Assembly: GCF_030684315.1 (NCBI RefSeq)
Contig: NC_081367.1
Span: forward strand, 44,241,853 to 44,305,852
Length of the DNA: 64,000 nt
Direction: 5' to 3'
DNA from: Stegostoma tigrinum
Lineage: Eukaryota
Below are positions 5,906 to 62,760 of this stretch, one piece after another (within the stretch, counting starts at the first letter, position 1; the number at the start of each line of letters is the position of its first letter). The translations under genes and the position numbers were made by a program. The notes below the pieces were generated by a model, which did not search any database, was not told the DNA's origin, and saw nothing but the letters and a program-made list of their open reading frames with translations.

Positions 5906-6608
5906 GGCACTTTTGTCCTGGCTAACCTGCTGTTCCTGTGCTTCCATGTGGTGGCGGTGGTTGTGGGTCTGGAAGTCATTAGTTGTGTTAGAAATTAGTT
6001 CAGTTCTCACCTTGTTGGCCACCTGCCCATTCAGATCTCAGTCCTGCTCCAGCAGACTACACATTTCTGTAATGGTTTCCGAAGATATTCTCAGTCTGCA
6101 GTGGCAATATGCCATGCTCCTGTGGAGGAAGCAGCATTGAGGAAAATAGATTCTTGGCCCGTCGTATCACATCCACGTTGCGATGGGACTTTCAGCTGTG
6201 ACCTTTTCCATGTGGAGGCCCCTGAGGCTACTGCTGTTCCTGGGCCTTCTGAAGCATCTGTTCCTCCTCTATTTCTCTGCCACCACAGTGATGATAACCC
6301 TTGCTGTGGCTGGATTCATCATTCACCGTTCTAATGAAACTGCACGGGGAATACCATTAACAGAATGGCTCCATAGTAATGTGAAGTCAGTGTTCACATT
6401 CAGCATGTTCCCACTTAACTCCTACTTCATCATTTAGACCATGTCTTTGTCTCCTAACATTACCCACAAGCCCTCAGGCTGCAGTTTACTGATGCCGGCC
6501 ATTATTATTCATTTTACATCCCCAAGGGTTGGAGGTGAGTTGGGGCGGGGTTTAGGGGGTGTCCATCAGTTCCCCTGTCTCGCCTGCAATAATCATGTCC
6601 CCCAGTGC

Positions 6609-6801
6609 TAATGGGAACTGCAGATGCTGGAGAATCCAAGATAATAGAATGTTAGGCTGGATGAACACAGCAGGCCCAGCAGCATCTCAGGAGCACAAAA
6701 GCTGACGTTTGAAGGACCTAGGCCCAAAACGTCAGCTTTTGTGCTCCTGAGATGCTGCTGGGCCTGCTGTGTTCATCCAGCCTCACATTTTATTATCTTG
6801 G
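6609..6801 (-). mobile_element. Two-armed inverted PLE family-1 mini-insertion, tail on the left
   Basis: Arms are reverse complements; 14-bp TSD atgtcccccagtgc at 6595-6608 and 6802-6815. Confidence 0.9.
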
Positions 6802-7367
6802 ATGTCCCCCAGTGCACTAGCTTTTCTCACACTTACCCTGATTTACATTCTGTTACTCAGGCATTGGACATGAGCGGACTGACTATGACCCATTCTCCGG
6901 CCTGTAATGAAGCAGAACTCCTGAGCTTGGACATCCCAAGTGGCTGACCACCAGTGTCCGAGCCCCTGGTTTGTGACCAGGCTATGGTCTTGACTGACTC
7001 TGTCAGTGCTCCCTGACTAACAATAATTCCCCTGATGCTTTGTAAAACTTTTTAGACTTGCCCATTTGGTTGAAGCACATTCATTGTGTTTGCTGATGTG
7101 CTGGTACAGACTTTGGGTGTGACAGTAGGGCCTGTTTCCATGCTGTGTGACTCTTATTGGCTGTAAATGATTTGATCTCTTTCTCAGATGCCATGGTACT
7201 GTAAATTGCAATAACAAACAATTATGTGATTCTTTAATGTGTCAATCTTTATTGTCAAAAGAAATTCTTAAGAGTGTAAATACCTAAAACTGCATCCTTT
7301 GACTTAGCCCCTACAGTTAACCAGCTGGAAAAGTTGACAAGCGAATAAACAAACTCATTTAGAAAGG

Positions 7368-11000: not shown

Positions 11001-11182
11001 TAATTGTATTGGATGTGACGAACATCTTAACCTGATATAAATGAAGCAATGCTTTCATGGAAGGCTTTCATTGGACTTTTGAATGTAATATTCACAATAA
11101 TGTATTTTCCCTGATTGTTCCTACCTTGTAGCATTTACAATCTCTACCAGTGTGTGATACTGAGCAAGGTTTGTTTCAATTA

Positions 11183-11357
11183 ACAAAGTGTGGAGCTGGA
11201 TGAACACAGCAGGCCAAGCAGCATCTCGGGAGCACAAAAGCTGATGTTTCGGGCCTAGACCCTTCATCAGAGAGGCTGATGCTGCTTGGCCTGCTGTGTT
11301 CATCCAGCTACACACTTTGTTATCTTGGATTCTCCAGCATCTGCAGTTCCCATTGTC
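11183..11357 (+). mobile_element. Two-armed inverted PLE family-1 mini-insertion, tail on the right
   Basis: 13-bp TSD tttgtttcaatta at 11170-11182 and 11358-11370; arms join at tcatcagagagg|ctgatgctgc. Confidence 0.9.
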
Positions 11358-11769
11358 TTTGTTTCAATTAGTTCACTGCTGCTAATTCTCCATTGCCTTG
11401 TCCTGTCTTGGGCCCATCCAGTGATTAATGGTAGAAGATACCCCACCATTGACTATATCAGCAGAAGAAGCAGTGTTCTTGATCACAGAACTGTTTATTA
11501 CAGTAACAATAAGTATGATTACATTTGATCAGTCATTATTATTAGGACATTCGGGAGCTGGTACAGATTTATCTGTTCCTTCTGAAAACTTTAAAAAAAA
11601 GCTTAGAAATAATTAAACCAAGTGTGAGGTTACACTGAAGTGTTGCTCAGAAGTGTTTTCTTTTACCTTCAATTAGGTCACTAAACCACGTGAGACTTTC
11701 CTTCCACGTACATAGTATATTCCGATTGACATGCACACTTATTATGATTGAATTTATTGATTAGCTTAA

Positions 11770-12460: not shown

Positions 12461-12968
12461 TAAACAAAAATCGATAGAACTGCGGATGCTGTAAATTAGG
12501 AACGAAAATAGAAGTTGCTGGAAAAGCACAGCAGGTCTGGCAGTATCTATGAAGAAGAAAATCAGAGTTAATATTTTGGGTTAAAACTGACTCAGAGATA
12601 GTAGGAGCTGCTGATGCTGGAGAATCTGAGATAGCAAGGTGTAGAGCTGGAGGAACACGGCAGGCCAAGCAGCATCAGAGGAGCAGGAAAGCTGACATTT
12701 TGAGTTAGATCCTTCATCAGAAAATCAGCTTGACTGAAAATACTTATTGGACAGCAATAATTAGCATAAAATGATGAGCCATTTTGACTCATTTTCTGAA
12801 GAGTCCAGACCTGAAACATCAGCTTTCCTGCTCCTCTGATGCTGCTTGGCCTGCTGCGTTCATCCAGCTCTACACCTTGTTATCGCTTAACATTTTGGGT
12901 CCAGTGTTCTGAAGAAGGGTCACTGAACCCGAAATGTTAACTGATTTTTTTTTCTTCATGGATATTGT
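12461..12968 (-). mobile_element. Two-armed family-2 PLE mini-element interrupted by a family-1 insertion
   Basis: Left arm 12461-12581 resumes at 12887-12905; right arm from ~12906 reads gttctgaagaagggtcactgaacccgaaatgttaac. Confidence 0.75.
12582..12886 (-). mobile_element. Two-armed family-1 PLE mini-insertion with a captured 64-bp centre
   Basis: 14-bp TSD ttaatattttgggt/ttaacattttgggt at 12568-12581 and 12887-12900; arms at ~12592-12725 and 12794-12884. Confidence 0.85.
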
Positions 12969-15722: not shown

Positions 15723-16080
15723 GGGGAAGTGATGGCCTGGTGGTATAATTGATGGACTGTTAATCCAGAGACATAGAAAATGTTCTGGGGGACCTGGGTT
15801 TGAATCCAGTCACAGCAGATGGTGAAATTTGAATTCAATAAATATCTGGAATTAAGAATCTAATAATGAATATGAATCCATCGTCGATTTTCAGAAAAAC
15901 CTATCTGGTTCATTAATGCCCTTTCGGGAAGGAAACTGCCATCCTTACCTGGTCTGGTCAACAAGTGACTCCAGACCCACAGCAAAGTGATTGACTCTTA
16001 ACTGCCCTCTGGACAATAGGGGATGGGTAATAAATGCTGCCTAGCTAGCGACACCCTCATCCCATGAATGAATAAAGAAA
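15723..16080 (+). mobile_element. tRNA-derived SINE (~350 bp) with a LINE-like 3' end
   Basis: A box tggcctggtggt and B box gggtttgaatcc; second copy at 53848-54200; the end resembles the LINE end at 4320-4395. Confidence 0.8.
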
Positions 16081-27530: not shown

Positions 27531-27542
27531 TGGTTTGAGTTA

Positions 27543-27734
27543 AGATAACAAAGTGTGGAGCTGGATGAACATAGCAGGCCAAGCAACATCTCAGGAGCAC
27601 AAAAGCTGATGTTTCAGGCCTCGACCCTTCATCAGAGATTGTGCTCCTGAGATGTTGCCTGGCCTGCTGTGTTCATCCAGCTTCACACTTTGTTATCTTG
27701 GATTCTCCAGCATCCGCAGTTCCCATTATCTCTA
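27543..27734 (+). mobile_element. Two-armed inverted family-1 mini-insertion, tail on the right
   Basis: 13-bp TSD ctggtttgagtta/ctggtttgagcta at 27530-27542 and 27735-27747. Confidence 0.9.
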
Positions 27735-32205: not shown

Positions 32206-33670
32206 GGTAATAAAGTGTGAGGCTGGATGAACACAGAAGGCCAAGCAGCATCTCAGGAGCACAAAAGCTGACGTTTTGGGCCTAGACCCTTCATCAGAGA
32301 GGGGGATGGGGTGAGGGTTCTGGAATAAATAGGGAGAGAGGGGGAGGCAGACCGAAGATGGAGAGAAAAGAAGATAGGTGAAGAGGAGAGTATAGGTGAG
32401 GAGGTAGGGAGGGGATAGGTCAGTCCAGGGAAGACGGACAGGTCAAGGAGGTGGGATGAGGTTAGTAGGTTGGAAATGGAGGTGCGGCTTGGGGTGGGAG
32501 GAAGGGATGGGTGAGACGAAGAACAGGTTAGGGAGGCAGAGACAGTCTGGGCTGGTTGTGTGGTGCAGTGGGGGGAGGGGGCGAACTGGGCTGGTTTTGG
32601 GATGCGGTGGGGGAAGGGGAGATTTTGAAGCTGGTGAAGTCCACATTGATACCATTGAGCTGCAGGGTTCCCAAGTGGAATATGAGTTGCTGTTCCTGCA
32701 ACCTTCGGGTGGCATCATTGTGGCACTGCAGGAGGCCCGTGATGGACATGTCATCTAAAGAATGGGTGGGGGAGTTGAAATGGTTCACGACTGGGAGGTG
32801 CAGTTGTTTATTGCGAAACGAGCGGAGGTGTTCTGCAAAGCGGTCCCCAAGCCTCTGCTTGGTTTCCCCAATGTAGAGGAAGCCACATCGGGTACAATGG
32901 ATACAGTATACCACATCGGCAGATGTGCAGGTGAACCTCTGCTTAATATGGAAAGTCATCTTGGGGCCTGGGATAGGGGTGAGGGAGGAGGTGTGGGGGC
33001 AAGTGTAGCACTTCCTGCGGTTGCAGGGGATGGTGCCGGGTGTGGTGGGGTTGGAGGGCAGTGTGGAGCGAACAAGGGAGTCACGGAGAGAGTGGTCTCT
33101 CGGGAAAGCAGACAAGGGTGGGGGATGGAAAAATGTCTTGGGTGGTGGGGTCGGACCAATGGTATCAATGTGGACTTCACCAGCTTCAAAATCTACCCTT
33201 TCACCCACCGCATCCCAAAACCAGCCCAGTTCGTCCCCTCCCTCCACTGCACCACACAACCAGCCCAGCTCTTCCCCTCCACCCACTGCATCCCAAAACC
33301 AGTCCAACCAGTCTCCGCCTCCCTAACCTGTTCTTCCTCTCACCCATCCCTTCCTCCCACCCCAAGCCGCACCCCCATCTACCTACTAACCTCATCCCAC
33401 CTCCTTGACCTGTCCGTCTTCCCTGGACTGACCTATCCCCTCCCCACCTATACTCTCTCCACCTATCTTCTTTTCTCTCCATCTTCGGTCCGCCTCCCCC
33501 TCTCTCCCTATTTATTCCAGAACCCTCACCCCATCCCCCTCTCTGATGAAGGGTCTAGGCCCGAAACGTCAGCTTGTGTGCTCCTGAGATGCTGCTTGGC
33601 CTGCTGTGTTCATCCAGCCTCACATTTTGTTGTCTTGGATTCTCCAGCATCTGCAGTTCCCATTATCTTT
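32206..33670 (+). mobile_element. Large two-armed inverted PLE (Neptune-like): left arm 32206-33155 (-, tail-less, with GIY-YIG), right arm 33156-33670 (+, tailed)
   Basis: Left arm encodes CNRRKCYTCP...VVYCIHCTRCGFLYIGETKQRLGDRFAEHL; junction gtcgga|ccaatggtatc; no TSD visible. Confidence 0.9.
33541..33572 (+). ncRNA. Minimal hammerhead ribozyme motif in the PLE 3' repeat
   Basis: CU-CUGAUGA-A-GGGU(CUAG)GCCC-GAAA-CG-UC^AG; the same motif occurs at 37498, 41788 and 52518. Confidence 0.7.
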
Positions 33671-35823
33671 GCTTAGATTGTATGTTTGGGTCTTGGACAG
33701 TGAGGAGAGAGGAGGTGAAAAGGAAAGAGGATTTCCCCATACTTCCCTCTCCCCATCATCACAATTGACAAGATCCTCAACCATGTCCAGCCCATTTCCT
33801 ACAATTCTATCCTCCTCTACAAGGGCACAATTACATTTAATGTGCATTGCATTTCTGTGGGGTCCGTGATTGGAATCACCAGCCAGAAATGCAGAGCTCA
33901 CTGTTCCTGTTATAACTAGCATCTAATTATGATTGCCACATCTCTCAAATTTAGTCCCATTTATGAGATACTGAAAAATAAATGAATACGAGTGGAGTGT
34001 TTATCTTTATGCAAGATTGTGACCCAGATATTACTTGGTAATTCAGGTTTAGAAATAATTGATATTGCAGTAAAAATCTGTTAGTGTCTCTGGTTGTAAT
34101 TTTGATTTAGTGTCTGAACTGCAAACAACAACAATCCATCAAAGGGGATGGGAGTTTTCAGAACCAGCCTTTATTGTGGTCGTTAAAAGTGTAATTCTGT
34201 GATGTTTGAGTTCTTGAGAACATAGGATATAGAACAGTACTGCACAATGCAGGCCCTTCAGCCCGCGATGTTGTGCCAACCTATTATCCTACTCTAAGAT
34301 CAAACTACCCTGCATACCCTTCATTTTACTATCATCCATGTGCCTATCCAAGAGCCGCTTAAATGTCCCTCATGTATCTGACTCTGCTACCACCACTGAC
34401 AGTGCATTCCACGTACCCAACACTCTGTGTAAAGAACCTACCTCTGACATCTCCCCTATTCCTTCCTCCAATTACATTAAAATTATGCCCCCGTGTAACA
34501 GTCATTTCCGCCCTGGGAAAAAGTCTGACTATCCACTCTGTCTATGCCTCTCATCATCTTGTAAAATTCTATCAAGTCAACTCTCATCCTCCTTCGCTTC
34601 AATGAGAAAAACCCTAGCTCCCTCAACCTTTCTGCATAAGATCTGCCCTCCAGTCCAGGCAGTGTTCTGGTAAATCTCCTCTGCGCCGTCTCTAAAGCTT
34701 CCGCATCCTTCCTATAATAAGGCGACCAGAGTGAATACACTATTCCAAGTGTGGTCTAAACAGAGTTTTATAGAGTTACAGCATAACCTTGTGGCTCTTA
34801 AATTCAACCCCCCTGCCAATGACAGCCAACACACCATACGCCTTCTTAACAACTCTATCAGCTTGGGTGGCAACATTGAGGGATCTATGGATGTGGACCC
34901 CAAGATCTCTCTTTCCTCCACACTGCCATTAATCCTGTATTCTGCATTCAAATTTTACCTTCCAGAATGAATCGCTTCACACTTTTCTGGGTTGAATGTC
35001 ATCTGCCACTTTGCCCAGCTCTGCATCCAGTCAATATCCTATTGCAACCCGCAACAGCCCTCCACACTATCCGCAGCTCCACCAACTTTTATGTCATTAG
35101 CAAACTTACTAAACCACCCTTCCATTTCCTGATCCAAGTCACTTATAAAAATCACAAAGAGCAGAGGTCCCACAACAGATCCCTGTGGAACACCACTGGT
35201 CACCAAGCTCCAAGCTGAATACTTCCCATCTACTACCACCCTCCGTCTTCTGTTGGACAGCCAGTTCTCTATCCAGACAGCCAAGGTTCCCTGAATTCCA
35301 TGCCTCCTTACTTTCTGAATGAGCCTACCATGGGGAACCTTATTAGATGCCTTTCTAAAATCCATATGTACCACATCCACTGCTCAACCTTCGTCAATGT
35401 ATTTTGTCACATCCTCAGAATTCAATAACACTTGTGAGGCATGTCCTGCCCCTCACAGAGCCATGCTGACTATTTCCAATCAAACAATGCTTTTCCAAGT
35501 AATCATAAATAATATCTCTCAGAATCCTCTCCAATAATTTCCCCACCACAAAAGTAAGAATGCTCTGTAATTCCCAAGGGTTATCCAAATTCTCTCTCTC
35601 GAACAAGGGAATGACATTTGCCACCCTCCAGTCATTTGGTACTACTCCAGTGGGCAGTGAGGATGCAAAGATCATTGCCAAAGGCGCAGCACTCTCTTTC
35701 CTCCCTTCCCATGGTAACCTTGGGTATATCCTGTCCGGCCCTTCTATCCTTATGTATTTCAAAATTTCTGGCACATCCTCCGTCCTAACATCAACCTGTT
35801 CGAGCATATCAGCCTGTTTCATA

Positions 35824-37607
35824 GATAATAAAATGTGAGGCTGGATGAACACAGCAGGCCCAGCAGCATCTCAGGAGCACAAAAGCTGACATTTCGGGCC
35901 TAGACCCTTCATCAGAGATGGGGATGGGCTAAGGGTTCTGGAATAAATAGGGAGAGAGGGGGAGGCGGACTGAAGATGGAGAGAAAAGAAGATAGGTGAA
36001 GAGGAGAGTATAGGTGGGGAGGTAGGGAGGGGATAGGTCAGTCCAGGGAAGACAGACAGGTCAAGGAGGTGGGATGAGGTTAGTAGATAGGAAATTGAGG
36101 TGCGGCTTGGGGTGGGAGAAAGGGATGGGTGAGAGGAAGAACAGGTTAGGGAAGCAGAGACAGGTTGGACTGGTTTTGGGATGCAGTGGGTGGAGGGGAA
36201 GAGCTGGGCTGGTTGTGTGGTGCAGTGGGGGGAGGGGACGAACTGGGCTGGTTGTGGGATGCGATAGGGAAGGGTAGATTTTGAAGCTGGTGAATTCCAC
36301 ATTGATACCATTGGGCTGCAGGGTTCCCAAGCAAAATATGAGTTGCTGTTCCTGCAACCTTCGCGTGGCATCATTGTGGCACTGCAGGAGGCCCATGATG
36401 GACATGTCATCTGAAGAATGGGTGGGGGAGTTAAAATGGTTTGCAACTGGGAGGTGCAGTTGTTTATTGCGAACCGAGCGGAGGTGTTCCGCAAAGCGGT
36501 CCCCAAGCCTTTGCTTGGTTTCCCCAATGTAGAGGAAGCCACACTGGGTACAGTGGATGCAGTATACCACATTGGCAGATGTGCAGGTGAACCTCTGCTT
36601 AATATGGAAAGTCATCTTGGGGCCTGGGATAGGCGTGAGGGAGGATGCCCTTGTCTGCTTTCCGGAGAGACCACTGTCTCCGTGACTCCCTTGTTCGCTC
36701 CACGCTGCCCTCCAACCCCACCACACCTGGCACCTTCCCCTGCAACCGCAGGAAATGCTACACCTGCCCCCACACCTCCTTCCTCACCCCTATCCCAGGC
36801 CCCAAGATGACTTTCCATATTAAGCAGAGGTTCACCTGCACATCTGCCAATGTGGTATACTGTATCCACTGTACCCGGTGTGGCTTCCTCTACATTGGGG
36901 AAACCAAGCGGAAGCTTGGGGACCGCTTTGCAGAACACCTCCGCTCGTTTCGCAACAAACAACTGCAGCTCCCAGTCGCAAACCATTTCCACTCCCCCTC
37001 CCATTCTCTAGATGACATGTCCATCATGGGCCTCCTACAGTGCCACAATGATGCCACCCGAAGGTTGCAGGAACAGCAACTCATATTCCGCTTGGGAACC
37101 CTGCAGCCCAATGGTATCAATGTGAACTTCACCAGCTTCAAAATCTCCCCTTTCCCCCACCGCATCCCACAACCAGCCCAGTTCGTCCCCTTCCCCCACT
37201 GCACCACACAACCAGCCCAGCTCTTCCCCACCACCCACTGCATCCCAAAACCAGTCCAACCTGTCTCTGCCTCCCTAACCGGTTCTTCCTCTCACCCATC
37301 CCTTCCTCCCACCCCAAGCCGCACCTCCATCTCCTACTACTAACCTCATCCCACCTCCTTGACCTGTCCGTCTTCCCTGGACTGACCTATATTCTCCCCA
37401 CCTATACTCTCCTTTCCACCTATCTTCTTTTCTCTCCATCTTCAGTTTGCGTCCCCCTCTCTCCGTATTTATTCCAGAACCCTCACCCCATCCCCATCTC
37501 TGATGAAGGGTCTAGGCCCGAAACGTCAGCTTTTGTGCTCCTGAGATGCTGCTGGGCCTGCTGTGTTCATCCAGCCTCACATTTTATTACCTCAGATTCT
37601 CCAGCAT
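35824..37607 (+). mobile_element. Large two-armed inverted PLE inside CR1: left arm 35824-36645 (-, tail-less), right arm ~36647-37607 (+, tail runs into the gap)
   Basis: Both arms encode the GIY-YIG domain (ORFs 36061-36726 - and 36645-37343 +). Confidence 0.9.
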
Positions 37608-38562: not shown

Positions 38563-39228
38563 GATAATAAAATGTGAGGCTGGATGAACACAGCAGGCCA
38601 AGCAGCATCTCAGGAGCACAAAAGCTGACGTTTCGGGCCTAGACCCTTCATCAGAGAGGGGGATGGGGGGAGGGAACTGGAATAAATAGGGAGAGAGGGG
38701 GAGGCGGACCGAAGATGGAGAGTAAAGAAGATAGGTGGAGAGGGTGTAGGTGGGGAGGTAGGGAGGGGATAGGTCAGTCCAGGGAAGACGGACAGGTCAA
38801 GGAGGTGGGATGAGGTTAGTAGGTAGCTGGGGGTGCGGCTTGGGGTGGGAGGAAGGGATGGGTGAGAGGAAGAACCGGTTAGGGAGGCAGAGACAGGTTG
38901 GACTGGTTTTGGGATGCAGTGGGTGGGGGGGGAAGAGCTGGGCTGGTTGTGTGGTGCAGTGGGGGGAGGGGATGAACTGGGCTGGTTTAGGGATGCAGTG
39001 GGGGAAGGGGAGATTTTGAAACTGGTGAAGTCCACATTGATACCATATGGCTGCAGGGTTCCCAGGCGGAATATGAGTTGCTGTTCCTGCAACCTTCGGG
39101 TGGCATCATTGTGGCAGTGCAGGAGGCCCATGATGGACATGTCATCAAGAGAATGGGAGGGGGAGTGGAAATGGTTTGCGACTGGGAGGTACAGTTGTTT
39201 GTTGCGAACTGAACGGAGGTGTTCAGCA
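38563..39228 (-). mobile_element. Single-arm tail-less PLE inside CR1
   Basis: Starts gataataaaatgtgagg; encodes AEHLRSVRNKQL...EQQLIFRLGTLQPYGINV; 7-bp duplication attactt at 38556-38562 and 39229-39235. Confidence 0.9.
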
Positions 39229-39564
39229 ATTACTTCTGCACCTTTCCAAAAGCTGCTTCCCAATCTGTTCCTCTGTTGAAGATCTTTATAAGTAAGATTT
39301 TCAAAAAGGTGAAGCGTGCAGAGAAAGGCTGGATTGAATCTGCTTTCATTCACAAATCTCTTATTAAAGTATGTAAGGATCAACTGAATTTTGTATGCTG
39401 ATCTTTTTGGTTATTTGTACTAAATATTTCCTACCATGTTTTATTTATTTTAAATTTATTGACTGTAGGACAGAATATTGATATATTACCCATTCAGAAG
39501 TGATAGCATTGTCATTCATACAACACTACTATGAGAAAAGTCATTGAGTGTTTCTGCATTCAGA

Positions 39565-41701: not shown

Positions 41702-41923
41702 GATAATAAAATGTGAGGCTGGATGAACACAGCAGGCCAAGCAGCATCTCAGGAGCACAAAAGCTGACGTTTCGGGCCTAGACCCCTCTCTGATGAAGGG
41801 TCTAGGCCCGAAACGTCAGCTTTTGTGCTCCTGAGATGCTGCTTGGCCTGCTGTGTTCATCCAGCCTCACATTTTATTATCTTGGAATCTCCAGCATCTG
41901 CAGTTCCCATTATCTCTGATACT
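41702..41923 (+). mobile_element. Young two-armed inverted family-1 mini-insertion with an intact hammerhead core
   Basis: ~84-bp perfect inverted arms; 15-bp TSD actttgagtatggat at 41690-41704 and 41924-41938 (gat shared with the element). Confidence 0.95.
41788..41819 (+). ncRNA. Minimal hammerhead ribozyme motif
   Basis: ctctgatgaagggtctaggcccgaaacgtcag. Confidence 0.7.
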
Positions 41924-49620: not shown

Positions 49621-51146
49621 GTTTGTCATTTGGTAGTTGGTTGTTTCGCATTAACGTAGCGGCTCCTAACATTGAATGGGAAAATTTGATTACTTTTGGA
49701 AATTTTACTGATATTCAGTACTTTTTGTTTAATCATTCTCAATTTGCCATATTTGGATGTCATTTAGTATTTGTCAGGGGATTCAGAATAAGCCAATTTC
49801 ACAGTTTCAAAGTTGATTCCACAATATTGCGACTGCAGTGGACATAGTCATAATATGAATTAAATCATTGCCATATCCTGTGTTTGATCTTGGATGACCC
49901 AAATAAACCCTCTTAAACCATATTTGAAATCAGGATCAGGATTCATCTGACTGCCTTCAGATCTGACGAGGAACCTGGTAAATTGTAGCTACTTTGAAGT
50001 GACAAGTTACTTTGGTTATGATTAAGTCATAGATCAGATAACAATGTCAACCTGATACTTATAACTTGCTGAAGTGCAAGCATCACTTTATTTTGTTTAG
50101 TGTCAGTTGTTTAAAAAGATTTAAAATATTTAATTTTGAAAATTGCAAGATGCTATTTTGTTTTGAGCTTGTACATTCCCAGCCTAATTCTGGCAACTGG
50201 GTTATGAATGCCCTTTTCAGTATTGATAAATATACTGAAATGATGAAGAATGGGTTTGTATTTTCCCAGGGAAGAGACTGAACAAAGATTAACTGTTTGG
50301 GTCTTGGAGAGAACAAAATGCTTATATCACAATTTGTTTTTGTCTTCAATGAATGAATTTGCCCCAATATTTAGTGGGAAGATGATGTGGAGAAACCAAA
50401 AATCCCACATGTAACTGTGGATTCTCATTGTTATTTTCATCCACTTCCCATTTAAGCTGGTCAGATTATCAGTTTTGGGGATTTGCCGGTTGATTGCAGA
50501 CCAGATTTAAGATGAAGGTAGAGGAGAGTATCCATCAATCATGGCAGGGTATCGATCCTCTTCCCTCCAACCTGCATATTGGAGAGATTCAAAGCTTGGT
50601 ATCTCCCATCCTGTCAACTGAGAGACGTACAGTAAAGAGGTAACCAGAATGATTCAACTAACCAATACGTGAATTAAACCAAATGACAGTTTACTTCACA
50701 AGGCCCGGCATATTTTACTCAATAGAAGTGAATCTCTCAGCAGACACTAAATGGTATCCAGAAATATTTTTTAACAATGTATGAAAATCTATTTTGTTTT
50801 GTGTAGATTCTTGAAAAATTAAAGTATATTGATAAATTTGTTGTTCGTCTTTGAATCTGAAAAGCAATCATTGGGCAAGAGAGTCGTTCTTGATTGTGAC
50901 CTCAAGTAGCCCTTGCTGTTTGTAATACCAAATCTGGTTTGAAGCTGAAATCTAATATTGTTCTTAAACTGTCATTAGTGTTCCTTTCTGGTTTTTACAC
51001 GACATTGCAAATGTAATGGAAATGAAAGACAGGTTTTGGTTAATGAAATATCAAGACAAATTAAGGTATCAAACCATGGAACATCTCGATTCTGTTGTAA
51101 GCCAAGCTGTAAAAATGAAAAGGTGCCAGGTACAGCGCAGTAATTA

Positions 51147-51479
51147 AGATAACAAAGTGTGGAGCTGGATGAACATAGCAGGCCAAGCAGCATCTCAGGA
51201 GCACAAAAATAACCTGAAGAAGTTACCCTCCTCCCTCCGGACCAACCTCAGGGAATCTCTCTCCCACTGCAACTCTCTCGTGGTTCTCTCCATCTTCGGT
51301 CTGCCTCCCCGTTCTCTCCCTATTTATTCCAGAACCCCCTCCCCATCCCCCTCTCTGATGAAGGTTCTAGGCCCGAAACATCAGCTTTTGCGCTCCTAAG
51401 ATGCTGCTTGGCCTGCTGTGTTCCTCCAGCTCCACACTTTGTTGTCTTGGATTCTCCAGCATCTGCAGTTCCCATTATC
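51147..51479 (+). mobile_element. Two-armed family-1 insertion with a ~75-bp unexplained centre
   Basis: 15-bp TSD acagcgcagtaatta/acagcccagtaatta at 51132-51146 and 51480-51494; arms at 51147-51208 and 51284-51479. Confidence 0.9.
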
Positions 51480-51550
51480 ACAGCCCAGTAATTAGCGACA
51501 TTGTAGTGTTGTGTAAACTGACTTTCTATAACTAGTCTGACAATGGTTTA

Positions 51551-52645
51551 CACACACCACCCTACCAACCTCCGGATACAACGCATTATCCTCCAACACT
51601 TCCGCCATTTACAATCCGACCCCACCACCCAAGACATTTTTCCATCCCCTCCCCTGTCAGCTTTCCGGAGAGACCACTCTCTCCGTGACTCCCTTGTTCC
51701 CTTGTTCGCTCCACACTGCTCTCCAACCCCACCACACCCGGCACCTTCCCCTGCAACCGCAGGAAATGCTACACTTGTCCCCACACCTCCTCCCTCACCT
51801 CCATCCCAGGCCCCAAGATGACATTCCACATTAAGCAGAGGTTCACCTGCACATCTGCCAATGTGGTATACTGCATCCACTGTACCCGGTGCGGCTCCCT
51901 CTACATTGGGGAAACCAAGCGGAGGCTTGGGGACCGCTTTGCAGAACACCTCTGCTCAGTCCGCAACAAACAACTGCACCTCCCAGTCGCAAACCATTTC
52001 CACTCCCCCTCCCATTCTCTAGATGACATGTCCATCATGGGCCTCCTGCAGTGCCACAATGATGCCACCCGAAGGTTGCAGGAACAGCAACTCATATTCC
52101 GCCTGGGAACCCTGCAGCCATATGGTATCAATGTGGACTTCACCAGTTTCAAAATCTCCCCTTCCCCTACTGCATCCCTAAACCAGCCCAGTTCGTCCCC
52201 TCCCTCCACTGCACCACACAACCAGCCCAGCTCTTCCCCCCCCCCCCCCACCCACTGCATCCCAAAACCAGTCCAACCTGTCTCTGCCTCCCTAACCGGT
52301 TCTTCCTCTCACCCATCCCTTCCTCCCACCCCAAGCCGCACCCCCAGCTACCTACTAACCTCATCCCACCTCCTTGACCTGTCCGTCTTCCCTGGACTGA
52401 CCTATCCCCTCCCTACCTCCCCACCTACACTCTCTCCACCTATCTTCTTTACTCTCCATCTTCGGTCCGCCTCCCCCTCTCTCCCTATTTATTCCAGTTC
52501 CCTCTCCCCATCCCCCTCTCTGATGAAGGGTCTAGGCCCGAAACGTCAGCTTTTGTGCTCCTGAGATGCTGCTTGGCCTGCTGTGTTCATCCAGCCTCAC
52601 ATTTTGTTATCCTGGAATTCTCCAGCATCTGCAGTTCCCATTATC
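51551..52645 (+). mobile_element. Single-arm tailed 5'-truncated PLE with GIY-YIG
   Basis: ORF 51818-52564 contains VVYCIHCTRCGSLYIGETKRRLGDRFAEH; perfect 15-bp TSD tctgacaatggttta at 51536-51550 and 52646-52660. Confidence 0.93.
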
Positions 52646-53274
52646 TCTGACAATGGTTTAGTTCTCTTTTAACATTCATAGTCTTGGTCTGTAAATAAAT
52701 CGTCACTCTGGTTACACAGAGCTGTGAAACCTAAAACCTTTAGAAGTCTTCGCATTTTAGGGTTCATTTTAAATTGGTGATTTGCTGGTACAGTTGTTGT
52801 TCCATAAGCTAAGTTGCATTGAAAATATTCACCTTTCAGTCTTTTCCCCAAGAGATTTAAGCAAAAGTCATGATCACACAATTTGTCTGTGCTTTCAAAG
52901 AAAAGTATTTTCAAATTAATTTACATTAAATTTCAGATATTTGCAATGTTAGCATTTAAATGTAATTAAATGCTGAGGGAGGACTGGCCACTTCAGTATG
53001 TTCCATCATCCCTTCACTGAAGATTCAACATATTTCATTTTTTAAACTTATTCCCCTGCCTATCCAAAAGTTAGCTCTGTGCCATAACTTCTTTCCACCC
53101 TGAAATTTCCTCTTAAAACATTTGCAAGTTTGGATTTCTTTTTGGTATCAAAATTTGCAAGAAAGGAAGAAGTAGGGCAGGTTTTATGTGACAGTATTGT
53201 GGTGTAGTTGTTGAATTTTGTTAGGAGTGAGGGACTTCACACATGATGTAAAATGATGGAATACGTTTGGTTAA

Positions 53275-53847: not shown

Positions 53848-54200
53848 TGGGAGCCGACAGCCAATTGGTATTATCACTGGACTGTTAACCCAGAGAAGCA
53901 GATAATGTTCTGGAGACCGGAGTGTGAATCATGCCACAGCAGATGGTGGAATTTGATTTCAATAAATATCTGGAATTGAGAATCTAATGATGATTGTTAA
54001 TCCGTTGTAGATTGTTGGAAAAACCCATCTGGTTCACTGATGTCCTTTAGGGAAGGAATCTGCCATCCTTACCTGGTCTGGCCTACATGTGACTCCAAAC
54101 TCTCAGCAATGTGGTTGACTCTTAATTGCCCTCTGGACAATTAGGGATGGGCAATAAATGTTGTCTAGCCAGCAACACCCTCATCCCATCAATGAATAAA
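53848..54200 (+). mobile_element. tRNA-derived SINE (same family as 15723)
   Basis: Collinear with 15723-16080 over its whole length. Confidence 0.8.
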
Positions 54201-58200: not shown

Positions 58201-60882
58201 TGCCTGTGAAAATTGGACATCATTCATTATCCTGCAACATGTTTGTGCTAGGTTTTCTAGGCACATCTTCAAATTGAAGATTTACTGTCTTCAGTGGACA
58301 CTGGTTTGTGGCAATATAGCTGGGAGTTGAGACGTTCAAACTCTAAGCATCTCTTCTTGGTTGATGTGCGTTGAAGGCATAACAAAATTGAAACTAGCTT
58401 TCTGATGGTATGTAGAGAGATTTACTGTATGTTCAGTGGTATTATTAATTGTGTTACCAAGCCACTTCAGCCTAAGTGATTTAATGTTGTGGGCATGTTT
58501 TAAATGGGTAATGTTTATGGTGCTGCATCAATTAATATAGTGGCATAGAGGGATTAAATTGGGAAATAAATTTGAGCACATTAGACCAAGGCACGGTGTA
58601 AATTAGTGACCCTATTGCTAATATCTTCAGCCTCATCTCACACAAAAACCCGTTCAAGTGTTTGGGACTGTCTCTCACTTCAGCATTGTCAGTACGTTTC
58701 AAAATGAAACCTGGCAAACACATTGGGTTTAATACACTCTTGGAGAATTCAATAAAATACTTTCATGCTCTTAACTTACCTGTAGGTTGGACTATTTTGT
58801 TAATGTTTTGAATTTGGTCTTTGTTGTACCTGATTTTAAAAAGTTAAAGTTCTAAAATGGAGTAAGGCCAATTTTAATGGTATTTGGCAGGAAATTTCAA
58901 AAGTCGATTGGGAGAGGCTATTTGCAGATAAAGAGATGGTTGGAAAGTGGGAGGCCTTTTAAAAATAAGGCAATGAGAGTTCAGAGACAGTATGTTCCAG
59001 CTCGTATGAAGGGAAAGGCTAGGAGGTGTCGGGAATGTTGGATGACAAGAGAAATTGAAGCTCTCGTCAAGAAAAAGAAGGAGACATATGTCAGGTACAG
59101 ACAGCTGGGATCCGGTGACTTCCTAGAAGAGTATAAGGGCACTTAGAGTACATGTAATTTGGAAATTAGAAGATAATAAGTGGACGTGAGGTAGGTTTGG
59201 CAAACAGGGTTATGGAGAGTTCAAAAAGATTCTACTAATAACACTAAGGACAAAGGAGTAACTAAGGACAGAATAAGAGTGTCAATTTGTGGAACAGGAG
59301 ATGGTTGAGATACTAAACAAATATTTTGTGTCATTATTTACTGTGAAAAATGATATGGGAGGTAGAGAACTTGGGGAAATAAATAATGAAATCTTGAAAA
59401 GTGTCCATATTCTCGAAGAGGAGGTGCTGAATGTCTTTAAATGTGCAACAGGTAGTTAAATTCCCAGACCCTGATCTGGTATCTCCCAAATCTTTGTGGG
59501 AAGCTAAGGAAGAGTTTGCTGGGTCCCTTGCTGAGATATTTGCACTATGATAACCTTAGATAAGGTGCTGGAAGATTGGACGTTAGCTAATGTGGTGCCA
59601 CTATTTTAAAAAGCATGGCAAAGAAAAACCAGGGAACCATAGATGAATGAGACATCAGTGGTGGGTAAGTTATTGGAGGGAATTCTGTGAAACAGGATTT
59701 ATATGCATTTGTTGAGGCAAGGATTGATCAAGGAGAATTAGCATGGCTTTGTGTGTGGGAAATCGTGTCTCACTAACATGTTTGACTTTTTTGAAGAAGT
59801 GGTAAAAAAGATTGGCAGAGCAGTAGATGTTGTCTTATGAAGATATGAACTTCAAAAAAGCATTTGACAAGGTTCTGCAATGAGGACTGTTTAAAAAAAG
59901 GTTGGATCATGTGAAATCCATGTGGAACGAGCCAATTAGATATAAAATTGGCTCTAAGGTAGGACACAGAGGGTGGTGTAGAGGATTGTTTCTCAGACTG
60001 GAGACCTGTAATCAGTGCTATGCTGTAAGGATCAGTCCTGGATTCACTGCTTTTGTCATTTATATGAATGATTTGTATGCAAAAATAAGATGCACGGTTA
60101 GTAAGTTTGCAGATGACACCAAAATTGGTGTAGTAGCCTGTGAACAAGGTCACCTCGGAGTACAATGGAACATTAATCAGATGGGCCAATGGGCCGAGGA
60201 GTGGCAGCTGAAGTTGAATTTAGATTAATGTGAGGATGCTGCGTTTTGGTAAGGCAGATCAGGGCAAAACTTTTATACAATTTAAAGTAGGACCCTGGGT
60301 GATGTCAAACAAAACAAGTGTAAGTACATAATTCCTTGAAACTGGCGTCCCAGGTAGACAAAGTGAAGAAAGTGTTTGGCAGCTTGCCTTCGTTCGTCAG
60401 AGCATTGAGTTTTGGATTTGGGATATCATGTTGCGGCTGTACAGGACTTTGGTTAGGCCGTTTTTGAAATACTGCATTTAACTCTGGTCTTCCTGCTTAA
60501 ACTTGAAACTTGCATAAAAGATTTCCAAGGATGTTGCCAGGATTGGAGCGTTTGAGCTACAGGAAGAGATGGGCACATCAGATGCTGAGAGGTGACCTCA
60601 TAGAGATGAATAGCCAAAAACTTTGTCCCAAGTTGAGGGAGTCCGAAACTAGAAGGAATATGTTTAAGGTGAGAGGGGAAAGGTTTAAAAGGGACCTGAA
60701 GGGCAACATGTTCACGTAGAAGGTGGTACCTGTATGAACGAGATGCCAGAGGAAGTGGTGGAGGCGGGTACAATTACTCAGGCATCTGGATGGTACATAA
60801 ATTGGAAAGATCCGGAGGGATATGGGTCAGTGCTGGCAAATAGGACTTGTTCAGTTAAACATACGGGTTGGCATGGACAAGT

Positions 60883-62760
60883 CCCTAAGCCCGTGACACC
60901 ACCCACGCCCTCCACCTCCTCCAGGACTTCCAATTCCCTGGCCCCCAACACCTCATTTTCACCATGGGCGCCCAGTCCCTATACACCTGTATTCCTCATG
61001 CAGATGGCCTCAAGGCCCTCCGCTTCTTCCTGTTTCGCAGGCCCGACCAATCCCCTCCACCGACACCCTCATCCGCCTCGCTGAACTTGTCCTCACCCTC
61101 AACAACTTCTCTTTCGATTCCTCCCACTTCCTACAGACAAAGGGGGCGGCCATGGGTACCCGCATGGGCCCAAGTTATGCCTGCCTCTTTGTAGGTTACG
61201 TGGAACAGTCCCTCTTCCGCACCTATACAGGCCCCAAACCCCACCTCTTCCTCCGTTACATTGATTACTTTATCGGCACTGCCTCTTGCTCCCCAGAGGA
61301 GCTCGAACAGTTCATCCACTTCACCAACACCTTCCACCCCAACCTCAAGTTCACCTGGGCCATCTCCAACACATCCCTCACCTTCCTGGACCTCCCAGTC
61401 TCCATCTCCGGTAACCAGCTAGAAACTGATGTCCATTTCAAGCCCACTGACTCTCACAGCTACCTAGAATATACCTCCTCCCACCCACCCTCCTGTAAAA
61501 ATTCCATCCCCTATTCCCAATTCCTCCTCTTCCGCCGCATCTGCTCCCAGGATGAGGTATTCCACTCCCGCACATCCCAGATTGTCCACATTCTTCAAGG
61601 ACCGCAACTTTCGCCCCGCAGTGGTCGAGAACGCCCTCGACCACATCTCCCGCATTTCCCGCAACACATCCCTCACACCCCGCCCCCGCCACAACCGCCC
61701 CCAGAGGATCACCCTCGTTCTCACATACTGCCCCACCAACCTCCGGATACAATGCATCATCCTCCGACACTTGTGCCATCTACAATCCGACCCCACCACC
61801 CAAGCTATTTTTCCATCCCTACCCTTGTCTGCCTTCTGGAGAGACCACTCTTTCTGCGACTCCCTTATCCGCTCCACACTCCCCTCCAACCTCACCACAT
61901 CCGGCACCTTCCCCTGCAACCGCAGGAAGTGCTACACTTGCCCCGACATCACCTCCCTCGCCCCTATTCCAGGCCCCAAGATGACCTTCCATATCAGGCA
62001 GATGTTCACCTGCACATCTGCCAATGTGGTATATTGTATCCATTGTACTCGGTGTGGCTTCCTCTACATTGGGGAAACCAAGCGGAGGCTTGGTGACCGC
62101 TTTGCGGAACACCTCCGCTCGGTTCGCAATAAACAATTGCACCTCCCAGTCGCCAACCATTTCAACTCCCCCTCCCATTCCTCAGATGACATGTCCATCA
62201 TGGGCTTCCTGCAGTGCCACAATGATGCCACCCAAAGGTTGCAGGAACAGCAACTCATATTCCGCTTGGGAACCCTGCAGCCCAATGGTATCAATGTGGA
62301 CTTCACAAGCTTAAAAACCTCCCCTTCCCCCACTGCATCCCAAAACCAGCCCAGTTCTTCCCCTCCCCCCACTGCATCACAAAACCAGCCCAGCTCGTCC
62401 CCTCCCCCAATTGCATCCCAAAACCAGCCCAGCCTGTCCCCACTTTCCTAACCTGTTCTTCCTCTCACCCATCCCTTCCTCCCACCTCAAGCCACACCTC
62501 CGTTCCTTACCTACCACCTCATCCCGCCTCCTTGACCTGTCTGTCTTCCCTGGACTGACCTATCCCCTCCCTACCTCCTCACCCATACTCTCCTCTCTAC
62601 CTATCTTCTTCTCTCCATTTTCGGTCAGCCTCGCCTTCTCTCCCTATTTATTTCAGAACCCTCTCCCCATCCCCCTTTTCTGATGAAGGGTCTAGACCCG
62701 AAACGTCAGCTTTTGTGCTCCTGAGATGCTGCTTGGCCTGCCGTGTTCATCTTGTTATCT
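60883..62760 (+). mobile_element. Longest PLE copy: 5'-truncated, frameshifted RT plus Cys-rich linker plus GIY-YIG, tail-less 3' end (Neptune-like)
   Basis: SLYTCIP, AMGTRMGPSYACLF, LRYIDY (catalytic DD mutated), LTFLDL, FKPTDSHSYL, IPYSQFL; frameshift near 61580; CNRRKCYTCP and VYCIHCTRCGFLYIGET. Confidence 0.93.
62678..62709 (+). ncRNA. Minimal hammerhead motif (stem II variant with U-A in place of U-G)
   Basis: ttctgatgaagggtctagacccgaaacgtcag. Confidence 0.7.

What the first reader, a model, noticed from the sequence alone, without database searches (positions are those of the whole stretch)
33541..33572. Minimal hammerhead ribozyme core in the PLE 3' repeat, 64 and ~100 nt upstream of the two end sites
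Seen: CUGAUGA-A-GGGU(CUAG)GCCC-GAAA-CG-UC is intact at 33541, 37498, 41788, 52518 and 38625-38656 (-); the 62678 copy has U-A for U-G in stem II. Stem III is reduced to the palindrome ACGU and family-1 stem I is only ~2 bp. Established: PLE terminal repeats carry minimal type I hammerheads thought to cleave as dimers. Inference: the inserted copies run intact through the predicted GUC^ site, so their template was uncleaved or re-ligated/circular RNA.
Basis: partly seen in the sequence, partly recalled or inferred. Interest (0 to 1): 0.7.

Follow-up and report, generated by a model that had tools for sequence, protein, structure and literature searches.

The report
Penelope hammerhead mostly uncut, sometimes cut
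This is an already described kind of tiny self-cutting RNA motif at the end of a Penelope-like jumping gene with over 170,000 copies in a shark-like genome, and the places where copies begin suggest that the element's RNA likely starts just in front of the motif, is usually copied uncut, and is likely cut there in a few percent of cases.

Summary
The motif is real and exactly as described. It is a minimal type I hammerhead in the pseudo-LTR of a Neptune-like Penelope-like element (PLE), a class described in 2014. Stems I and II covary across families. The +64 and about +100 ends are the known PLE tail, lying in the 5' UTR of the next unit. It is not universal. Copies starting exactly at +1 number 834, against 195 and 43 at -1 and -2 (about 2%). 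Some form tandem arrays restarting at +1 with variable extra bases, which fits a cut linear RNA and template jumping better than a circle. Many copies start about 4 nt before the core with an extra G (75% versus 27% expected), absent at +1, suggesting a capped start. 40 of 41 inverted pairs join one +64 and one +100 arm. All RNA-level steps are inferred; no cleavage was assayed. The scan reported these features before on other DNA of this genome.

The parts
33541..33572 (+). Minimal type I hammerhead: stem I 33541-42 with 33571-72 (2 bp), CUGAUGA 33543-49, bulged A 33550, stem II 33551-54 with 33559-62, GAAA 33563-66, palindromic ACGU 33566-69, predicted cut between 33570 and 33571
   Evidence: sequence; covariation across families
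33539..33539 (+). Position -32: inferred capped transcription start of the family (this copy itself extends further upstream)
   Evidence: 5'-end cluster and extra-G bias; inference
33571..33670 (+). Downstream segment, equal to the 5' UTR of the next unit, with the short end site near 33634 (+64) and the long end site near 33667-33670 (tail)
33156..33670 (+). Right (long-end) arm of an inverted, 5'-truncated PLE insertion
32208..33155 (-). Left (short-end) arm of the same insertion; its hammerhead (32268-32299) has G12 changed to A
37498..37529 (+). Intact hammerhead copy in arm 36648-37607; head-to-head partner arm 35823-36645 (-) has its copy at 35886-35917 with CG changed to TG in stem III
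38625..38656 (-). Intact hammerhead copy in a short-end arm 38563-39229
41702..41920 (.). Miniature inverted pair: short-end arm 41702-41788 (-, starts at -23) and long-end arm 41783-41920 (+, starts near -35, intact hammerhead 41788-41819)
52518..52549 (+). Intact hammerhead copy in the long-end copy 51551-52650
60884..62751 (+). Longest PLE copy in the window: 5'-truncated, frameshifted RT part, C-X4-C-X2-C linker, GIY-YIG (PF01541, E=1e-4), 3' UTR, hammerhead 62678-62709
51146..51483 (.). Internally deleted insertion: inverted short arm, ORF-start piece (+144..+215) joined to the 3' UTR near -100, decayed hammerhead 51353-51384, long end
27542..27732 (.). Miniature inverted pair (short arm starts at -31, long arm at +6); decayed hammerhead 27606-27637 (-)
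11181..11358 (.). Miniature inverted pair; decayed hammerhead 11241-11272 (-)
6603..6802 (.). Miniature inverted pair whose arms both start inside the core (-20 and -24); gives a spurious miRNA-hairpin hit in Rfam

Best explanation
The motif is the minimal hammerhead of a Neptune-like PLE pseudo-LTR; it likely sits 4 nt behind a capped transcription start, is predicted to fold into an inactive hairpin as a monomer, and so is usually copied uncut but is likely cut in vivo in a few percent of templates. Shown from DNA: a 3,634-nt unit with the same motif at both ends, the ORF start at +139, copies ending at +64 or about +100, and inverted pairs joining one arm of each kind. Inferred: the element's protein nicks both target strands and primes reverse transcription at +64 on one and about +100 on the other, on an RNA still joined across GUC^. 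Priming in the 3' repeat gives ordinary 5'-truncated copies. Priming in the 5' UTR runs off the capped end near -32 and gives 95-135-nt stubs with an untemplated G. When the ribozyme has fired (probably with protein help or as a dimer through ACGU), the enzyme runs off at +1 without a G and sometimes jumps to another RNA end, building arrays that restart at +1. The likely effect of cleavage is to remove the capped 32-nt leader or to free a unit from a tandem transcript; it is not needed for insertion.
For: Class and position. Covariation: 8 of 10 pairs change on both sides, stem II 100% paired, 0 of 500 shuffles reach the score. Uncut majority: 172,937 intact; monomer off-hairpin CUGAUG/CGUCAG at -11.4 kcal/mol, probability 0.95, against -3.6 for the hammerhead stems; dimer hammerhead -5.5 against -38.0 for the best cofold. 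Cut minority: boundary counts -2: 43, -1: 195, +1: 834, +2: 417, +3: 499; normalised 242, 1099, 2974, 1047, 1126; after correcting for chance matches about 0, 475, 2670, 811 for -2, -1, +1, +2. Arrays L231 (8 units), L234 and L235 restart at +1 with 0-2 variable extra bases; L223 and L224 join ORF-start sequence directly to +1. Capped start: 36 of 89 copies at risk end at -36..-27 against 2.3 expected; 11 of 22 solo copies with a target-site duplication start at -36..-27; G precedes -32 in 805 of 1,079 cases (75%, expected 27%) but precedes +1 in 221 of 834 (26.5%). Untemplated G as a cap trace is described for L1 and SVA. Two-site priming: 40 of 41 classifiable pairs are long plus short (p=2e-11; 4 more unclassifiable), and 21 of 40 have arm starts within 10 nt against 6.9 by permutation. 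It matches the two RT start sites and protein-assisted cleavage shown for the Anolis PLE.
Against: No RNA end, cleavage product or cap was observed; everything is read from DNA junctions. In the 137-copy sample only 3 start at +1, two of them in one pair centred on the AGCT palindrome, and +1..+4 is not clearly above +5..+10 (p=0.09). None of 22 duplication-bounded solo copies starts at +1. None of the 8 copies (of 30 loci) that reach the 5' UTR starts at +1. Of 12 +1 hits inspected, about 3 are indel variants or ambiguous, and arrays inflate the 834. Three of the 6 arrays (L232, L233, L237) have 3-4 nt of microhomology that needs no cut. The Poseidon-like family shows no stub cluster at its core (0 of 12 at risk). 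The off-hairpin is not conserved in the other families (read). The folding energies ignore tertiary contacts and protein.
Confidence: 0.7

Rival explanations
1. The ribozyme cuts efficiently, unit-length RNA is re-ligated to a circle, and circles are the main template, which would explain intact junctions and longer-than-unit copies.
For: L199 and L200 carry a full 3.6-kb unit plus about 360 and 1,290 nt of upstream repeat, 99.6% and 98.0% identical to the 3' copy; a transcript starting at -32 cannot give this without a circle, a jump or read-through. L217 is one insertion with four 301-nt-period units sharing a private A-to-G change at position 1.1. Circles were proposed in PMC4209133.
Against: A circle has no end at -32, yet that is the commonest start, with a cap-like G. 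Junctions in the L231, L234 and L235 arrays vary from unit to unit, whereas a circle would give identical junctions. Read-through of genomic tandems explains the long copies equally well. The monomer fold is inactive.
Confidence: 0.13
2. The ribozyme is inert in this family; the +1 excess comes from reverse transcriptase pausing at the base of the off-hairpin and from joining at the AGCT palindrome or other microhomology.
For: Stem I is only 2 bp and the active fold is far from the energy minimum. Eight of 9 tested Xenopus retrozyme dimers did not cut. No reads ended at the Anolis cut site. Some arrays have microhomology.
Against: A pause at the hairpin base predicts ends at +3, not +1, and +3 is about a third of +1 after normalisation. 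The +1 pattern excluded the symmetric AAA-AGCT junction. Ends fall to about zero at -2, as expected for a physical RNA end. L231, L234 and L235 have blunt junctions with extra bases. Stems covary across families.
Confidence: 0.12
3. The stub start at about -32 marks a stall or an exonuclease block at the ribozyme or RNP edge, or a self-propagating SINE-like subfamily, not a transcription start.
For: The cluster is broad (-36..-17) and tracks the helix edges; it recurs in older families with different upstream sequence (23 of 29 and 35 of 54 at risk, where divergence of the single reference copy may inflate the numbers). In D. virilis the start site lies upstream of an intron that precedes the hammerhead.
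Against: A stall or block does not predict a G that is absent from the element at -33 (75% against 27%), even when the base at -35 is fixed as T to avoid inverted-arm junctions. The bases before the G vary, unlike a fixed subfamily.
Confidence: 0.12

Closest known systems
Minimal hammerheads (min-HHR) of metazoan PLE pseudo-LTRs (Cervera and De la Pena 2014, PMC4209133; read parts 1-2 of 4, supplements not seen)
   Same: Type I topology, no real helix III with palindromic 15.2-16.2, unpaired base between positions 9 and 10.1, G10.1-C11.1, several covarying families per genome, found in fish Xena, Poseidon and Neptune elements; low activity, dimer model.
   Different: Stem II is 4 bp and stem I 2 bp here, against 7-8 and 4-5 bp in their Schistosoma families. 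Copy number is far higher (about 240,000 descriptor hits extrapolated; they report about 4,000 in coelacanth and 9,000 in Xenopus with another descriptor). The parts read name no cartilaginous fish and state that in vivo evidence is absent.
PAc Poseidon PLE of Anolis (Frangieh et al. 2024, PMC11167929; read parts 1-2 of 4)
   Same: Two internal RT start sites downstream of the hammerhead that define the tail; both target strands cut and extended; unprocessed RNA is the main substrate; the ribozyme needs protein.
   Different: There the ORF starts inside stem II; here at +139. They saw no strand preference for the two start sites and no RNA reads ending at the cut; here genomic pairs are almost always long plus short and a minority of copies start at the cut.
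Inverted 5'-truncated pLTR with one-sided 30-40-bp tail in EN+ PLEs (PMC8557442 and PMC3846280, passages read)
   Same: Partial tandems, head-to-head inverted copy, tail often on one end only, 8-19-bp target duplications.
   Different: PMC3846280 explains the inversions by self-priming on an antisense template; the 40 of 41 rule and the matched arm starts fit two-site priming on sense RNA better (inference).
Non-LTR retrozymes as PLE derivatives (Li et al. 2026, 10.64898/2026.07.22.740005; read parts 1-3 of 5, supplements closed)
   Same: Tandem 300-450-nt units with one type I hammerhead each, derived from PLE ends, also reported in one chondrichthyan. L217 (301 nt) and L185 (440-448 nt) are of this kind.
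   Different: The 33541 motif itself belongs to a truncated autonomous-type copy, not an array. The +1-restart arrays contain no hammerhead core at all.
R2 elements: 5' ribozyme cleavage and end-to-end template jumping (search listing only; mechanism recalled)
   Same: A ribozyme defines an RNA 5' end, and the RT can jump between RNA ends after adding untemplated bases.
   Different: R2 uses an HDV-like ribozyme that makes the normal 5' end of the template; here the cut is a minority event behind a probable cap.

Membership tests
Minimal type I hammerhead (min-HHR) | Core CUGANGA ... GAAA ... UH in type I order | tested here: met
   11 core columns invariant in 15 descriptor-chosen copies
Minimal type I hammerhead (min-HHR) | Helix II and helix I supported by compensatory change | tested here: met
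   stem II 4 of 4 pairs with two-sided change and 100% paired; first stem I pair 15 of 15 paired (UA, AU, UG); outer stem I pairs often broken; rows are related, so the shuffle count is not a probability
Minimal type I hammerhead (min-HHR) | Palindromic 15.2-16.2, no helix III loop; bulge between 9 and 10.1; G10.1-C11.1 | tested here: met
   against the features listed
Minimal type I hammerhead (min-HHR) | Self-cleavage at UH^ (dimer or protein-assisted) | not testable with these tools
   indirect genomic footprint at +1 only
Rfam hammerhead families | Match to a curated covariance model | tested here: not met
   no hammerhead hit at E<=1 in the window
EN+ Penelope-like element | Single ORF with RT and C-terminal GIY-YIG | tested here: met
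   PF01541 in 4 of 6 ORF pieces, one above the curated cutoff; homologues carry PF00078 and some PF01541; ORF start and frame in L199
EN+ Penelope-like element | Pseudo-LTR partial tandem, inverted 5' copy, 30-40-bp tail, target duplication | tested here: met
Neptune clade | CX2-5CxxC linker between RT and a C-terminal EN | tested here: met
   C-X4-C-X2-C precedes the GIY-YIG; the feature is from PMC8557442 and is shared with Nematis
Neptune clade | RT phylogeny groups with Neptune references | not tested
   no named reference set held; no tree built
Non-LTR retrozyme | Tandem non-coding units, each with a hammerhead | tested here: not met
   the 33541 copy is an arm of an ORF-bearing truncated insertion; met only for L217 and L185

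The most novel reading that the evidence does not exclude
The genome holds a fossil 5'-end map of a PLE RNA: a capped start 4 nt before the hammerhead and an uncapped end exactly at GUC^. This would be in vivo evidence that a metazoan PLE minimal hammerhead fires, acting as a rarely triggered self-decapping switch, while a dimeric RT primes one target strand at +64 and the other at +100 on a single RNA and can copy the cut fragment over and over, telomerase-like, into short arrays.
Probability: 0.45. Interest if true: 0.72.

Novelty: new member of a known kind. Interest (0 to 1): 0.5.

Why it matters
The motif alone is ordinary for PLEs. What the hammerhead does in PLEs is an open question: the papers read report low activity, no in vivo evidence, and no RNA reads at the cut site. 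A family with more than 170,000 copies allows junction statistics that point to exact nucleotides for a cap (-32), a cut (+1) and two priming sites (+64, about +100), so each step becomes a one-experiment test. My searches found no paper on these footprints or on shark PLE hammerheads (open-access library only, and supplements of PMC4209133 and of the 2026 preprint were not seen).

Tried and rejected
Rfam scan: no hammerhead model hits; miRNA hits at 6675 and 11189 are fold-back PLE pairs, far below gathering scores. Idea that intact copies arise by the RT rejoining the two cleavage halves: no excess of one-base insertions at the bond (G or T inserted: 1, against 2, 5 and 0 at neighbouring bonds; extra A: 17, against 9 and 10 for neighbouring duplications), so rejected as a major route. 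Idea that full-length copies begin at the cut: 0 of 8. Splicing near the hammerhead (a pyrimidine tract and CCAG about 50 nt before the cut): no joint with splice ends in four contig sets, untested otherwise. RNA runs: no RNA holder listed; four runs guessed as RNA were contigs of related families and cannot show ends or expression. DNA search with the 64-nt tail returned nothing because common words are skipped. Searches used a stem I shifted by one column and were replaced; alignment A1 had one mis-placed row and was replaced by A2. Lunse et al. 2016 is not held and is known to me only through PMC6765202. A by-sequence look-up of earlier notes returned nothing. Within-family conservation of core versus flank is flat apart from CpG decay, as expected for dead copies, and gives no evidence either way.

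Full report
Observation. Five copies are letter-identical and the 62678 copy has the stated U-A change. Five more CpG-decayed copies and several older relatives lie in the window. A loose pattern gave 74 overlapping matches against a shuffle mean of 24. A stricter descriptor (core, stem II of 4 bp or more, stem I of 1 bp or more) gave 108 hits in 144 ten-kb stretches of the same genome, taken at round coordinates on large contigs, against 0-2 in five Markov controls. That extrapolates to about 240,000. Rfam has no matching hammerhead model. Positions below count from the predicted cut: +1 is the first base after GUC, and C3 is -28.

The carrier. The window lies in a 3.2-Gb genome. The element's RT region is closest to proteins labelled Chiloscyllium (82%) and Mobula (73%), so the host is likely a cartilaginous fish. 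ORF pieces carry a GIY-YIG domain (4 of 6 pieces) behind a C-X4-C-X2-C linker, the Neptune/Nematis feature in PMC8557442 (passages); no tree was built. Two of 30 loci found with the 5' ORF part have the hammerhead in direct orientation before the ORF. In L199 the cut-to-cut unit is 3,634 nt and the ORF starts at +139. So the 64 and 100 nt after the hammerhead are the 5' UTR of the next unit. The family makes up about 5% of the sampled DNA.

Is it a conserved ribozyme fold? At least four other families occur, among them Poseidon-like ones with their own GIY-YIG and a 6-bp stem II. In 15 hand-picked natural copies, 8 of 10 pairs change on both sides, stem II is fully paired, and the first stem I pair is UA, AU or UG in all 15; no shuffle or slide reaches the score. 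The copies were chosen by a core-demanding descriptor and are related, so this supports the stems, not the core, and is not a p-value. These features match the min-HHR class of PMC4209133 (parts 1-2 of 4 read), which lists fish Neptune and Poseidon elements and already proposes dimers and circles.

The two end sites. Of 137 young copies, 66 end at +54..+73 and 65 at +95..+120. This is the known 30-40-bp tail. PMC11167929 (parts 1-2 of 4) showed that it lies between two internal RT start sites. Here, 40 of 41 classifiable head-to-head pairs join one short and one long arm; one pair is long-long and 4 are unclassifiable. In the window, 5 pairs follow the rule and one is unreadable because its far end reads N. 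Arm starts are within 10 nt in 21 of 40 pairs against 6.9 by permutation. I infer that one event primes both target strands, at the two sites, probably on one RNA.

Was the template uncut? Mostly. 110 of 137 copies cross the site, and 172,937 exact matches span it genome-wide. The monomer is predicted to fold CUGAUG onto CGUCAG, burying the core (probability 0.95), and the dimer hammerhead is far above the best cofold. Intact junctions carry no excess of inserted bases, so they were not stitched by the RT. This agrees with the Anolis result that unprocessed RNA is the main substrate.

But not always. Patterns demanding three mismatches before a boundary give 43, 195, 834, 417 and 499 copies at -2, -1, +1, +2 and +3. 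Normalised and corrected for chance matches, +1 is about 2,700, its neighbours 475 and 811, and -2 about zero; +1 is 1.7% of +1 plus intact copies. Of 12 +1 loci read, about 9 look like real starts, two of them direct joins from ORF-start sequence to +1. I fetched 8 stretches chosen for closely spaced hits: 6 are tandem arrays restarting at +1, one is complex and one is not an array. In L231 eight 100%-identical units of +1..+46 are joined through 0-2 variable extra bases; L234 and L235 behave alike. L232, L233 and L237 could be microhomology slips. Variable junctions fit run-off at a linear 5' end and template jumping (R2-like; listing only, mechanism recalled) and do not fit a covalent circle. 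Against this reading: the small sample alone gives weak support (3 starts at +1; +1..+4 against both flanks p=0.0006, against +5..+10 p=0.09); 0 of 22 duplication-bounded solos and 0 of 8 near-full-length copies start at +1; arrays inflate the count. I looked for the exact +1 footprint after earlier scan notes mentioned it.

A start just before the core. 36 of 89 copies at risk begin at -36..-27 against 2.3 expected from the upstream rate. Target duplications confirm it for 11 of 22 solos. Two older Neptune-like families show it and the Poseidon-like family does not. Genome-wide, the base before -32 is G in 3,060 of 3,974 cases, and in 805 of 1,079 when -35 is fixed as T to avoid inverted-arm junctions; 27% is expected. 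Before +1 it is G in 221 of 834. Untemplated G is read as a copied cap in L1 and SVA (PMC4859970, passages). So the RNA likely starts capped about 4 nt before C3, and the +1 end is likely uncapped, as a ribozyme product would be.

Circles. Not excluded. L199 and L200 are longer than one unit. L217 is one insertion with four 301-nt-period units sharing a private change at 1.1, and L185 has 440-448-nt units. These resemble the non-LTR retrozymes of the 2026 preprint (parts 1-3 of 5). Read-through of genomic tandems explains them as well. Public runs gave no RNA-level information.

Verdict. A real, ordinary member of a known class. The added value is indirect genomic evidence for a capped start, occasional in vivo cleavage and two-site priming, each testable at a named base. 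The scan has reported these features on other pieces of this genome and in other shark-like genomes; those notes are not independent evidence. I found no paper on them, within an open-access library and without the supplements of PMC4209133 or the preprint.

Noticed in passing
window 33571-33670 and L002, L003, L004, L108, L208: The segment after the cut has a shared fold in three Neptune-like families: GAUGCUG pairs with CAGCAUC around an inner hairpin, with the +64 site inside the helix and the +100 site just after it (alifold on 7 copies). Candidate protein-binding and RT start element.
   Followed up: partly
L217:4982-6182; L185:6750-8434; window 51146-51483: Retrozyme-like internally deleted derivatives (301-nt and 440-448-nt periods). 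The L217 and window junctions are close but not identical (ORF +215 joined near -90 to -105), suggesting recurrent jumps at one pyrimidine-rich patch.
   Followed up: partly
G000:C5:1683566-1684065, C5:65440642-65440869, C9:12957626-12957785 (listed): Several independent arrays with an exact 68-nt period restarting at +1 after TGG; a preferred unit +1..+68 ending near the short RT start site.
   Followed up: no
L077, L079, L083, L087, L088: 5 of 8 near-full-length copies stop at +50..+92 of the 5' UTR, the region of the two priming sites, as if a bound protein blocked the RT there.
   Followed up: no
window 33385-33521: The 3' UTR has a TACTAAC word and about 130 nt without AG ending in TTCCAG, 50 nt before the cut; a second CTCTTCCAG lies just before the ORF start in L096. 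They look like splice acceptors but may only reflect pyrimidine richness.
   Followed up: partly
window 7945, 12720(-)/12796, 53283, 11902(-), 12909, 26163: Decayed hammerhead stubs of older Neptune-like families; 12593-12884 is an older inverted long-plus-short pair.
   Followed up: partly
L218, L186, L212, L204: A young Poseidon-like PLE family with a 6-bp stem II and ends at about +43 and +81; it lacks the stub cluster seen in the Neptune-like families.
   Followed up: partly
L230: A copy starting at +1 inserted into stem II of an older family's hammerhead.
   Followed up: no
L066 and L164: Two stretches 10 Mb apart on C10 share the same PLE breakpoints, probably a duplication or a carrier repeat; they may count twice in the sample.
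   Followed up: no
window 15741-16076 with 53866-54200; 59560-60880: Other dispersed repeats (84% pair; decayed LINE-like RT fragments before the long PLE copy), not identified by any search.
   Followed up: no
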